From NCBI RefSeq assembly GCF_024298765.1, contig NZ_CP101210.1: a stretch of DNA of 64,000 bases. One strand, given 5' to 3'. Shown here piece by piece: positions 50,294 to 51,913 of the stretch; the stretch's first letter is position 1, and each line of letters begins with the position of its first letter. The notes beneath the pieces are model-generated. The model was given only the letters and a program-made list of their open reading frames with translations, ran no database searches and was not told the DNA's origin. The DNA is from Escherichia coli. Its GTDB lineage: Bacteria; Pseudomonadota; Gammaproteobacteria; Enterobacterales; Enterobacteriaceae. Position numbers and translations under genes: made by a program.

Positions 50294-51913
50294 ATGAAAA
50301 CAGCGCAGCGTACTTTATTTGCCGCAACATTGCTGACTATTTTTTCGACCTCAGTTATGGCGCAGGATGTCACGATTATTTATACCAATGATCTTCACGC
50401 CCATGTGGATTCCTATAAAGTACCATATGTCGCAGACGGAAAACGCGACATTGGTGGCTTTGCCAATATATCTACGTTAGTAAAACAAGAGAAAGCCAAA
50501 AATAAAGCCACTTTTTATTTTGATGCTGGAGACTATTTCACCGGGCCATATATCAGTAGCCTGACAAAGGGCGAAGCAATAATTGATATTATGAATACCA
50601 TGCCTTTTGACGCAGTATCAATCGGTAATCATGAGTTTGACCATGGCTGGGATAATGCCCTCCGACAATTAAGCAAAGCGAATTTCCCTGTTTTATTAGG
50701 CAATGTTTATCATAAAGAGAGTGAGAAACCCTTCTGGAACAAGCCCTACACCATCCTGGAAAAAGATGGCATCAGGATTGGTATTGTTGGGCTACACGGC
50801 GTATTTGCATTTAATGACACGGTCTCGGAGCTCTCTCTCCAGGGACTCGATAATGACAATAATAACCGATTTGATAAATCTTCCGCGACCCTCAAGAATC
50901 AGGGGATTGAAGCACGTGATGAAGTAAAGTATTTGCAGCATTATATCGACGAGTTACGTGATAAGGTTGACCTCACCGTGGCGCTGGTTCATGAAGGCGT
51001 ACCGGCGCGTCAGTCCAGCATTGGCAATACAGATGTTAGACGTGCGCTGGATAAAGATATTCAAACCGCAAGCAAGGTGAAAGGATTGGATATTCTGATT
51101 ACCGGGCATGCCCACGTCGGAACGCCAGAACCAATCAAAGTCGGCAACACCTTAATCCTTTCGACTGACAGTGGCGGTATCGATATTGGTAAATTAATCC
51201 TTGATGTCAACCCTACAGCTCGTACTCATAAAGTGAAGAGCTTTGAGCTGAAAACGGTTTATGCCGATGAATGGATACCCGATCCAACCACACAAAAAGT
51301 TATCAATGGCTGGAATAAAAAACTGGCGGATCTTGTACGCCAACCAGTCGGTGAATCATCGATTGCATTAACTCGTGCCTACGGTGAGTCATCGCAACTT
51401 GGCAACCTGTTTACCGATGCAATGCTTGTCGCTGCACCGACTGCACAAATTGCGTTGATAAACTCCGGCAGTTTACGTGCTGATATAAATGCAGGCACGA
51501 TTACCTTTGGTGACATTACCAGTACATTCCCCTTCAAGAATGAACTTACTGAAATGGATCTCAGCGGTAAGGATCTGCGTAACCTACTGGAACACGGGGC
51601 ATCGCTTACCAATGGCATCCTGCAAATGTCAAAAGGCGCAGAAATGCGCTATACCCTGCAGAAACCAGTAGGTCAGCGCATTGTATCTTTTAAAATTAAT
51701 GGTGAAGAGATCGTTGATACGAATATTTACCATGTTGCGACTACGACTTTCCTTGCACTTGGGGGCGATGGTTTTCTGGCATTCAAAGAAGGGAAAAATG
51801 TCCAGGTCCGCGCCGGAAATAACATGTCCAATGTCGTAATCGATTATTTTAAGAAAGGCCACAAGATTACTCCTGCACAGGTAAATGAAATGCGGGTAGA
51901 AGTAAGCAAATAA
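50294..51913 (+). CDS. Secreted metallophosphatase / 5'-nucleotidase, UshA-like (paralog 3, about 539 aa); accessory
   Basis: ORF 50288..51913; the second ATG at 50294 has better RBS spacing (AAGGA). Signal peptide ...TLLTIFSTSVMA|QD. Closely similar to paralog 1 over most of its length, with a unique Asp/Asn-rich 25-aa insertion. Confidence 0.85.
   Translation: MKTAQRTLFAATLLTIFSTSVMAQDVTIIYTNDLHAHVDSYKVPYVADGKRDIGGFANISTLVKQEKAKNKATFYFDAGDYFTGPYISSLTKGEAIIDIMNTMPFDAVSIGNHEFDHGWDNALRQLSKANFPVLLGNVYHKESEKPFWNKPYTILEKDGIRIGIVGLHGVFAFNDTVSELSLQGLDNDNNNRFDKSSATLKNQGIEARDEVKYLQHYIDELRDKVDLTVALVHEGVPARQSSIGNTDVRRALDKDIQTASKVKGLDILITGHAHVGTPEPIKVGNTLILSTDSGGIDIGKLILDVNPTARTHKVKSFELKTVYADEWIPDPTTQKVINGWNKKLADLVRQPVGESSIALTRAYGESSQLGNLFTDAMLVAAPTAQIALINSGSLRADINAGTITFGDITSTFPFKNELTEMDLSGKDLRNLLEHGASLTNGILQMSKGAEMRYTLQKPVGQRIVSFKINGEEIVDTNIYHVATTTFLALGGDGFLAFKEGKNVQVRAGNNMSNVVIDYFKKGHKITPAQVNEMRVEVSK

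What the first reader, a model, noticed from the sequence alone, without database searches (positions are those of the whole stretch)
50828..50902. Paralog-specific Asp/Asn-rich 25-residue insertion in nucleotidase 3
Relative to paralog 1, which is otherwise closely similar in this region, paralog 3 contains ELSLQGLDNDNNNRFDKSSATLKNQ inserted between the N-terminal metallophosphatase domain and the C-terminal domain. Paralog 1 has only a short AATRV linker there. A low-complexity acidic/amide loop at the domain hinge could change substrate gating or add a metal or calcium-binding site.
Basis: seen in the sequence. Interest (0 to 1): 0.4.

Follow-up and report, generated by a model that had tools for sequence, protein, structure and literature searches.

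The report
Conserved loop insertion in periplasmic nucleotidase
One of three neighbouring E. coli nucleotidase genes carries a real, selectively maintained 20-residue extra loop, but it lies inside the catalytic domain beside the base-binding pocket rather than at the domain hinge, and it is a modest lineage-specific variation of a well-known enzyme family.

Summary
Paralog 3 (window 50288-51913, +) has 25 residues, E181-Q205 (50828-50902), where paralogs 1 and 2 have 5. That is an exact in-frame gain of 60 nt.

The segment length is otherwise fixed across the 5'-nucleotidase family down to about 28% identity. The insert is a single derived gain defining an ortholog clade in Escherichia, Citrobacter and Enterobacter. 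It evolves under the same purifying selection as the rest of the protein (pN/pS 0.10 vs 0.10).

- **Position.** The insert is not at the domain hinge (helix 333-350). It lies inside the N-terminal metallophosphatase domain, between the residues aligned to human CD73 P187 and G188. That CD73 loop (L184, N186) faces the nucleobase in the closed enzyme, so the insert probably sits on the rim of the substrate cleft.
- **Structure.** AlphaFold gives the loop pLDDT below 50.
- **Metal binding.** The EF-hand pattern is not met.
- **Co-varying sites.** Three of ten clade-specific substitutions flank the two base-clamping phenylalanines.

Best reading: a flexible flap that tunes base specificity or cleft closure. 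This is inferred, not shown. I rate it a new variant of a known kind, of low to moderate interest.

The parts
50288..51913 (+). Paralog 3: periplasmic two-domain 5'-nucleotidase-family enzyme, 541 aa as an ORF. RefSeq starts it 6 nt later, giving 539 aa.
   Evidence: ORF. Pfam Metallophos 29-277 plus 5_nucleotid_C 359-501. RefSeq name 'bifunctional metallophosphatase/5'-nucleotidase'. AF2 model pLDDT 91.6, superposes on PDB 3IVD_A at 0.9 A.
50828..50902 (+). The reported segment, E181-Q205 (ELSLQGLDNDNNNRFDKSSATLKNQ). It replaces the 5 residues of the paralogs. The net 60-nt gain is placed at about 50831-50890 by DNA alignment.
   Evidence: Purifying selection pN/pS 0.103 against 0.096 for the rest. 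pLDDT below 50 for residues 191-204.
50849..50866 (+). The DNDNNN run (D188-N193), core of the Asp/Asn-rich part. It resembles an EF-hand or DxDxDG loop at positions 1, 3, 5 and 9 only.
   Evidence: Ortholog variation DN[DN][NKE][NS][NH]RF[DS]KS. PS00018 not matched.
50624..50635 (+). GNHE motif (G113-E116) of the dimetal site, upstream of the insert within the same domain.
   Evidence: G113 is invariant and N114 and H115 are nearly invariant in the 86-sequence alignment A3. Aligned to CD73 G116-E119.
51284..51337 (+). Interdomain linker helix (residues 333-350). This is the true hinge region, about 130 residues downstream of the insert.
   Evidence: Helix H333-350 in the model. Aligned to CD73 318-336, the linker helix described in PMC8677862.
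51533..51538 (+). F416 (base-clamp Phe, equivalent to CD73 F417) and K417, a substitution fixed in the insert clade (Pro in the sister and paralog-1 clades).
51743..51760 (+). T486 to L491, around the second clamp Phe F488 (equivalent to CD73 F500). T486 and L491 are clade-specific fixed substitutions.
51990..52850 (+). Tsx-family outer-membrane nucleoside channel gene, 76 nt downstream of paralog 3. A Tsx-like gene is directly adjacent to the insert-bearing gene in every locus examined.
   Evidence: Pfam Channel_Tsx 1.5e-69. NCBIfam NF011686 492.8 bits against a cut-off of 311. Adjacency at the window and 11 of 11 fetched loci.
48700..50253 (+). Paralog 2 (517 aa, 55% identical to paralog 3), 34 nt upstream on the same strand. 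It lacks the insert.
45660..47219 (-). Paralog 1 (519 aa, 68% identical to paralog 3). It is c4898, solved as PDB 3IVD (uridine) and 3IVE (cytidine). It lacks the insert.
47346..48470 (+). Hypothetical 374-aa protein, divergently paired with paralog 1. Context only, not part of the insert.
   Evidence: No Pfam hit. Weak IS1-type zinc-ribbon match. Pairing conserved in other genera.

Best explanation
**The enzyme.** Paralog 3 is a catalytically intact, signal-peptide-bearing (periplasmic, inferred) two-domain dimetal 5'-nucleotidase. It belongs to the c4898/3IVD subfamily.

**Origin of the loop.** In the common ancestor of one ortholog clade (Escherichia, Citrobacter, Enterobacter), 60 nt were inserted into a surface loop of the N-terminal catalytic domain. 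The site is directly after the short helix 172-178 and before strand 207-209.

**Where it sits.** The site corresponds to the gap between P187 and G188 of human CD73. That is the end of the loop whose L184 carbonyl and N186 face the N6 edge of the bound nucleobase when the two domains close.

**Proposed mechanism.** The 20 extra residues form a flexible flap on the rim of the interdomain substrate cleft. The flap becomes ordered only on closure or ligand binding, and it contacts the C-terminal domain near the two base-clamping phenylalanines. This would change which nucleobases or substituents are accepted, or shift the open/closed equilibrium that controls turnover. The result would be a substrate profile distinct from paralogs 1 and 2 within a nucleotide-scavenging module that always includes a Tsx-type channel.

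**Shown:** the insertion, its derived single origin, its position by homology, its selective constraint, and the co-occurring substitutions next to the clamp.

**Inferred:** the flap contacts and any effect on specificity or kinetics.
For: - **Insertion and fixed family length:**
- **Single derived gain:** in an NJ tree built without the insert columns, the insert-bearing sequences form one clade (apart from the recombinant P0015) nested among insert-less relatives. Outgroups down to 28% identity lack it.
- **Constraint:** pN/pS is 0.103 in the insert and 0.096 in the rest, with synonymous sites near saturation (pS 0.57-0.66) across 7 orthologs.
- **Position:** MAFFT and hhalign both place the insert between CD73 P187 and G188, with par3 D177 equivalent to CD73 L184. 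In closed CD73 with AMPCP, adenine N6 is 3.9 A from the L184 carbonyl (PMC8677862). N186 contacts N6-substituents lying in the cleft between the two domains (PMC13077603).
- **Model state:** the model matches closed-state structures (TM 0.77-0.79) and 3IVD (rmsd 0.9 A).
- **Active site intact:** D35, H37, D82, N114, H115, D118, H235, H274, H276, R397 and F416 are invariant or nearly invariant family columns, and par3 carries the conserved residue at each.
- **Co-varying sites:** 3 of 10 substitutions fixed only in the insert clade (K417, T486, L491) lie within 3 residues of the clamp Phe F416/F488. Hypergeometric P = 0.002, post hoc. Control clades give 0 of 1 and 1 of 19.
- **Flexibility:** the loop has low pLDDT yet is conserved, as expected for a conditionally ordered flap.
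Against: - No coordinates were available, so the distance from the loop to the ligand or the C-terminal domain was never measured. The placement rests on sequence alignment to CD73 at about 24-28% identity.
- AlphaFold gives no confident conformation for the loop (pLDDT below 50), so it may simply point into solvent.
- The enrichment of clade-specific substitutions near the clamp is a post hoc test on 10 sites.
- No biochemical data exist for any of the three paralogs beyond the nucleoside-bound structures of paralog 1.
Confidence: 0.45

Rival explanations
1. Structural passenger. The loop is a solvent-exposed excursion kept for folding, stability, solubility or protease resistance in the periplasm. 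It has no role in substrate binding or catalysis.
For: pLDDT is below 50 across residues 191-204 in two independent models. The composition is polar and Asn/Asp-rich, typical of surface loops. A natural mosaic (P0015) carries the loop in a paralog-1 backbone, which shows it is tolerated in another context.
Against: Purifying selection is as strong as on the catalytic core, and the sequence is nearly invariant (GLDN..NRF.KS) over saturated synonymous divergence. The family otherwise keeps this segment at a fixed length. The site adjoins the base-facing loop.
Confidence: 0.25
2. Partner-docking loop. The insert binds another protein of the module, most obviously the adjacent Tsx-like outer-membrane channel, tethering the enzyme beneath the channel.
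For: A Tsx-like gene is directly adjacent at the window and in 11 of 11 fetched insert-bearing loci. It occurs in two different gene orders and includes one two-gene module (L005). Three loci of the nearest insert-less clade have none. A conserved but intrinsically unstructured loop is typical of interaction motifs.
Against: - An AF2 model of paralog 3 fused by a 40-residue linker to the Tsx-like protein left the loop below pLDDT 50, with pTM 0.66. It used 8 paired ortholog rows plus unpaired homologs.
- Gene adjacency is equally explained by pathway coupling (channel plus hydrolase).
- All the loci belong to a single phylogenetic clade, so the correlation is effectively one event.
Confidence: 0.12
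3. Calcium or other metal-binding loop. The DNDNNNRFDKS stretch chelates a divalent cation that rigidifies the loop or regulates activity.
For: D188, D/N190, N/S192, F195 and D/S196 fit EF-hand loop positions 1, 3, 5, 8 (hydrophobic) and 9. Position 4 is the most variable, as expected for a non-ligand position.
Against: PROSITE PS00018 is not matched in paralog 3 or in any of 15 orthologs. Position 12 is S, A or G and never the obligatory Glu or Asp. Position 6 is N or H rather than Gly. No relaxed DxDxD...E match exists. D196 is Ser in one ortholog.
Confidence: 0.1
4. Not an insertion at all: either an ancestral segment deleted in paralogs 1 and 2, or an assembly or frameshift artefact.
For: None found. 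Considered because only three paralogs were compared originally.
Against: Every family member examined outside the clade lacks it: 77 aligned proteins and 324 domain instances. The insert clade is nested inside insert-less lineages. The segment is present and in frame in 658 of 658 complete E. coli genomes and in 5 other species.
Confidence: 0.02

Closest known systems
c4898 of E. coli CFT073 (PDB 3IVD with uridine, 3IVE with cytidine), i.e. paralog 1 of this window
   Same: Same subfamily, same island and same two-domain fold. 66-68% identity. The AF2 model of paralog 3 superposes at 0.9 A with TM 0.99. Catalytic and clamp residues are the same.
   Different: Has the 5-residue AATRV segment instead of the 25-residue loop. 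Differs at K417, T486 and L491 next to the base clamp. Paired with a divergent hypothetical gene rather than a Tsx-like gene.
Human ecto-5'-nucleotidase CD73 (e.g. PDB 4H2I, closed, with AMPCP)
   Same: Same architecture and domain-rotation mechanism. The model matches closed CD73 at TM 0.77-0.79. The loop L184-P187, which faces the nucleobase N6 edge, is the segment directly preceding the insertion point.
   Different: About 24-28% identity (24-25% in the Foldseek alignments; 28% by hhalign). GPI-anchored eukaryotic dimer. No extra loop at this site. CD73 has its own insertions elsewhere.
E. coli UshA (periplasmic UDP-sugar hydrolase / 5'-nucleotidase; PDB 1USH, 1HP1, 1HO5)
   Same: Periplasmic monomeric dimetal enzyme with the same Pfam architecture.
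   Different: About 21% identity. Paralog 3 scores 156.8 bits against the UshA equivalog model, whose cut-off is 600. It is therefore not UshA, despite some RefSeq product names.
Haemophilus influenzae NadN (PDB 3ZTV, 3ZU0)
   Same: A periplasmic family member that processes nucleotides that have crossed the outer membrane, so it depends functionally on an outer-membrane channel (my own knowledge). Structural match.
   Different: Scores 120.8 bits against a cut-off of 436. No equivalent loop was found in the sampled family.
EF-hand / DxDxDG calcium-binding loops
   Same: D-x-D-x-N spacing, a hydrophobic residue at position 8 and D/S at position 9.
   Different: Lacks Gly6 and the bidentate Glu12. 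PS00018 is not matched. No flanking helix-loop-helix was predicted with confidence.

Membership tests
5'-nucleotidase / UshA-like superfamily (Pfam Metallophos + 5_nucleotid_C) | N-terminal calcineurin-like metallophosphatase domain followed by the 5'-nucleotidase C-terminal domain | tested here: met
   PF00149 6.8e-11 (residues 29-277) and PF02872 1.1e-36 (359-501), both above the gathering scores.
5'-nucleotidase / UshA-like superfamily (Pfam Metallophos + 5_nucleotid_C) | Dimetal-site motifs (DxH, GD, GNHE, His, GHxH) and the catalytic His-Asp pair | tested here: met
   D35, H37, D82, N114, H115, D118, H235, H274 and H276 of paralog 3 sit in invariant or at least 90% conserved columns of the 86-sequence alignment. 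They align to CD73 D36, H38, D85, N117, H118, D121 and H220.
5'-nucleotidase / UshA-like superfamily (Pfam Metallophos + 5_nucleotid_C) | Two aromatic residues clamping the nucleobase, and phosphate-binding Arg in the C-terminal domain | tested here: met
   F416 and F488 align to CD73 F417 and F500. R397 aligns to CD73 R395.
5'-nucleotidase / UshA-like superfamily (Pfam Metallophos + 5_nucleotid_C) | Nucleotide phosphohydrolase activity with a large interdomain rotation | not testable with these tools
   The only indirect evidence is fold identity with 3IVD and closed CD73.
UshA equivalog (NCBIfam NF007109) | Whole-protein score at or above the curated cut-off of 600 bits | tested here: not met
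   156.8 bits. Likewise NadN 120.8 against 436, CpdB 99.8 against 486, and SoxB 142.7 against 550.
c4898 / 3IVD subfamily of enterobacterial periplasmic nucleotidases | Close sequence and fold similarity to the solved c4898 protein | tested here: met
   phmmer E = 8.2e-230. Foldseek rmsd 0.9 A, TM 0.99, 66% identity.
EF-hand calcium-binding loop | PROSITE PS00018 12-residue loop, with Gly-like position 6 and Glu/Asp at position 12 | tested here: not met
   No match in paralog 3 or in 15 orthologs. Position 12 is S, A or G.
EF-hand calcium-binding loop | Actual binding of Ca2+ | not testable with these tools
   Would need ITC, DSF or crystallography.
Tsx nucleoside channel (the neighbour gene) | Pfam Channel_Tsx and the NCBIfam Tsx subfamily cut-off | tested here: met
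   PF03502 1.5e-69. NF011686 492.8 bits against 311. About 65-68% identical to canonical Tsx proteins.

The most novel reading that the evidence does not exclude
The conserved but intrinsically disordered 20-residue flap, together with the K417/T486/L491 changes around the base clamp, gives the paralog-3 clade a substrate specificity not found in other 5'-nucleotidases. The strictly linked Tsx-like channel would admit that same substrate class. Together they would form a dedicated channel-plus-hydrolase scavenging pair that extraintestinal pathogenic E. coli use on host-derived nucleotides.
Probability: 0.2. Interest if true: 0.45.

Novelty: new variant of a known kind. Interest (0 to 1): 0.25.

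Why it matters
- **Uncharacterised genes in pathogens.** The metL-metF island with three nucleotidase paralogs and a Tsx-like channel is present complete in 12% of complete E. coli genomes, mostly ExPEC or B2-type strains such as CFT073, Nissle 1917 and APEC. It is listed as an uncharacterised shared region (GR 31, PMC12928451).
- **A handle on divergence.** If the paralogs have diverged in substrate range, the loop is the clearest sequence handle for testing how. Nature has already supplied an insert-swap mosaic (P0015).
- **Relevance to the family.** For 5'-nucleotidase enzymology it would show that the N-domain loop facing the base edge (CD73 L184-N186, exploited by CD73 inhibitors) is an evolvable specificity element.
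- **Otherwise ordinary.** Apart from this, it is a routine lineage-specific loop insertion.

Tried and rejected
1. **Mobile element or repeat origin.** The 111-nt region hits only this gene, once per genome, in 5,426 E. coli genomes. GC equals that of the gene. No source for the 60 nt could be traced.
2. **EF-hand or DxDxDG motif.** Strict and relaxed regular-expression tests both came back negative.
3. **Docking to the Tsx-like channel.** I modelled an AF2 fusion with a GS linker on a mixed paired and unpaired alignment. The loop stayed below pLDDT 50 and pTM was 0.66. This is only a weak negative, because neither PAE nor coordinates are returned.
4. **Measuring loop-to-ligand distances.** Model coordinates are not exposed in /data. 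Position had to be inferred from alignments to CD73 plus published crystal-structure descriptions.
5. **Literature on c4898, 3IVD or 3IVE.** No relevant paper is in the library. Only the BEN2908 comparative-genomics paper mentions the island.
6. **First HMM-based loop-length count.** It mis-assigned the insert beyond the second anchor. I repeated it with a wider anchor.
7. **Promoter and terminator scan of the island.** Nothing above the shuffled expectation.
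Full report
**Context**

The window is E. coli chromosome of the CFT073 / B2 type. Between metF (44388-45278, -) and metL (53068-55500, -) lies a five-gene island:
- paralog 1 nucleotidase (45660-47219, -)
- a 374-aa hypothetical protein (47346-48470, +)
- paralog 2 (48700-50253, +)
- paralog 3 (50288-51913, +)
- a Tsx-family channel gene (51990-52850, +)

The complete island occurs in 658 of 5,426 complete E. coli genomes. About 1,190 further genomes match only part of it; the examples listed carry just the paralog 1 plus hypothetical pair, at about 90-92% identity. A 2026 comparative-genomics paper lists the region as GR 31 (metL..metF). It calls the three ORFs hypothetical UshA-domain enzymes next to a Tsx homologue and reports no functional data (PMC12928451).

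**Checking the observation**

Codons 181-205 of paralog 3 occupy exactly 50828-50902 and read ELSLQGLDNDNNNRFDKSSATLKNQ. Paralog 1 has AATRV and paralog 2 has AKARE at the same place. The nucleotide alignment shows a single 60-nt in-frame gap. So 25 residues replace 5, a net gain of 20.

The description is accurate apart from the "25-residue insertion" wording. D and N make up 8 of 25 residues against 14% in the mature protein (P = 0.017), with one DNDNNN run. GC content is the same as the rest of the gene.

**Is it really an insertion, and how old is it?**

- *Orthologs keep it.* Database homologues of 536-539 aa, from E. coli, E. albertii, Citrobacter and Enterobacter at 81-99% identity, all carry the segment with only conservative variation. 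The pattern is ELS[LI][QK]GLDN[DN]x[NS][NH]RF[DS]KSxxxLKNQ.
- *Nearest relatives lack it.* The next-closest proteins (about 70% identity; Cronobacter, Atlantibacter and others) have SASMRQ-type 5-residue segments.
- *Family length is fixed.* In an 86-sequence alignment reaching 28% identity, all 77 non-orthologs have 29-31 residues between the flanking anchors, against 51 here. A profile-based count over 327 domain instances from 259 proteins put three par3-clade proteins at +20. Of the other 324 instances, 319 have 21-26 residues, and five instances in three giant multi-domain proteins carry 5-12 extra residues at a slightly different point.
- *Single gain.* An NJ tree built without the insert columns places the insert-bearing sequences in one clade. 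That clade is nested within the insert-less SxxMRQG group, which is sister to the paralog 1 clade. The sole exception, P0015, is a mosaic: a paralog 1 backbone with a paralog 3 tract across about residues 100-250 that includes the loop.
- *Narrow distribution.* A degenerate DNA pattern for the loop, scanned over one genome for each of 100,044 species, hit six species only: E. coli, E. albertii, Escherichia sp., two Citrobacter sp. and Enterobacter asburiae.
- *No traceable source.* The insert DNA is single-copy in E. coli genomes and present in every genome that has the gene.

The segment is therefore a single, derived gain that predates the split of these genera or has spread among them.

**Selection**

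I compared seven orthologous coding sequences by Nei-Gojobori counts. Summed over pairs, pS was 0.66 and pN 0.068 in the 25 insert codons. In the remaining roughly 490 codons pS was 0.57 and pN 0.055. The ratios are 0.103 and 0.096. Synonymous sites are near saturation while the peptide barely changes, so the loop is as constrained as the catalytic core.

**Where it sits**

That is incorrect.
- It lies inside the Pfam Metallophos span (29-277), between the GNHE motif (113-116) and His235. The C-terminal domain begins at about residue 359.
- The AlphaFold2 model (pLDDT 91.6, pTM 0.90) has the interdomain helix at 333-350. The insert falls between helix 172-178 and strand 207-209.
- Residues 191-204 have pLDDT below 50.
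- The model superposes on PDB 3IVD_A, which is c4898 (paralog 1) bound to uridine, at 0.9 A with TM 0.99. It resembles closed CD73 (TM 0.77-0.79) far better than open forms (0.54-0.56).

Coordinates are not exposed to me, so I located the site by homology. I first verified the human CD73 sequence against PDB chains. MAFFT and an independent profile alignment with hhalign then both put the insert between CD73 P187 and G188, with paralog 3 D177 opposite CD73 L184.

Published crystal structures describe this CD73 loop:
- In closed CD73 with AMPCP, the adenine N6 amino group is 3.9 A from the L184 carbonyl. The authors propose this contact contributes to base discrimination (PMC8677862).

By inference the insert emerges from the rim of the nucleobase pocket on the N-domain side. 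It is far from the hinge in sequence but probably at the domain interface of the closed enzyme.

**Is the enzyme intact, and what else changed?**

All dimetal ligands, the His-Asp pair, R397 and both clamp phenylalanines (F416 and F488, equivalent to CD73 F417 and F500) are present. None of the three paralogs reaches the NCBIfam cut-offs for UshA, NadN, CpdB or SoxB. They form their own subfamily, represented structurally by 3IVD and 3IVE.

Ten positions are fixed in the insert clade and never share a residue with the sister or paralog 1 clades: D41, R126, H142, Q370, K417, T486, L491, V505, A509 and V516. Three of them lie within three residues of a clamp phenylalanine. The hypergeometric P is 0.002, and the test is post hoc. 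The control clades give 0 of 1 and 1 of 19. This suggests the base pocket was remodelled on both sides along the branch that acquired the loop.

**Metal-binding idea**

DNDNNNRFDKS fits EF-hand loop positions 1, 3, 5, 8 and 9. Position 6 is N or H rather than Gly, and position 12 is S, A or G rather than Glu or Asp. PROSITE PS00018 matches none of paralogs 1-3 or 15 orthologs, and a relaxed DxDxD...E pattern finds nothing in paralog 3. The idea is not excluded, but nothing positively supports it.

**Genomic linkage and the docking idea**

At the window and in all 11 other insert-bearing loci examined, a Tsx-like gene is directly adjacent to the insert-bearing gene.
- Two gene orders occur: nucleotidase then tsx, as here and in C. 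enshiensis, and tsx then nucleotidase, as in E. albertii, Enterobacter, other Citrobacter and another E. coli lineage.
- One locus is a bare two-gene module.
- Three loci of the nearest insert-less clade have no tsx. They have a divergent Zn-ribbon hypothetical gene instead.

To test whether the loop might dock on the channel, I modelled mature paralog 3 fused through a 40-residue GS linker to the mature Tsx-like protein. The alignment had 8 paired ortholog rows plus unpaired homologues of each half. The loop stayed below pLDDT 50 and pTM was 0.66. That gives no support, though the test is weak. Pathway coupling of a channel with a periplasmic hydrolase is sufficient to explain the linkage.

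**Conclusion**

The finding is a real, lineage-specific, selectively maintained 20-residue loop expansion in a known enzyme family.

The best-supported mechanism, at confidence about 0.45, is a conditionally ordered flap on the rim of the substrate cleft. It would tune nucleobase specificity or domain closure, differentiating paralog 3 from paralogs 1 and 2.

The rivals are:
- a structurally constrained passenger loop (0.25)
- a partner-docking motif (0.12)
- a metal-binding loop (0.10)
- an artefact or ancestral segment (0.02, effectively refuted)

It is a new variant of a known kind, of low to moderate interest.

Noticed in passing
Protein P0015 (E. coli, 537 aa, 2 member sequences); compare window 45660-47219 and 50288-51913: A natural mosaic nucleotidase. 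It is paralog-1-like over residues 1-100 and from about 250 onward, and paralog-3-like over about 100-250, including the loop. This implies gene conversion or recombination between the inverted paralogs. It amounts to a ready-made insert-swap variant.
   Followed up: partly
window 47346-48470 (+): The 374-aa hypothetical protein has no Pfam family and only a sub-threshold IS1/IS1595-type zinc-ribbon match at residues 74-105. It is divergently paired with paralog-1-type nucleotidase genes in Citrobacter, E. albertii and Enterobacter. At 37-40% identity, as a 422-aa protein, it is also paired in Cronobacter-like loci. It looks like a conserved two-gene module, perhaps with a regulator. The about 1,190 E. 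coli genomes that match only part of the island appear to carry this pair alone, judging by the listed examples.
   Followed up: partly
L003, L004, L009-L014 compared with window 50288-50370: Orthologs in the tsx-then-nucleotidase arrangement have a signal peptide ending LPLWACAKDV, like paralog 1 of the window. The window's paralog 3 has FSTSVMAQDV, like paralog 2. This suggests 5'-end exchange among the paralogs.
   Followed up: no
L010 (E. coli strain SCPM-O-B-8794): E. coli has a second, divergent insert-bearing locus type. Its nucleotidase is 86% identical at the protein level and its Tsx-like protein 58% identical, in the tsx-then-nucleotidase order. The megablast searches detected none of these (no match to the par3 gene was below 95% identity), so the figure of 658 genomes undercounts insert-bearing E. 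coli.
   Followed up: no
H36, NZ_CP074576.1 (E. coli CS18F), island region: In this strain an IS1A element interrupts the island. The match comes in 2 pieces and 4 nucleotidase features are annotated.
   Followed up: no
L003 (E. albertii) 2004-9611: This cluster holds four nucleotidase paralogs plus a Tsx-like gene, one more paralog than in the window. Copy number in the module is variable.
   Followed up: no
window 50288 vs 50294: The longest ORF starts at ATG 50288 (541 aa). RefSeq annotates the start two codons later (539 aa). This has no bearing on the finding.
   Followed up: no
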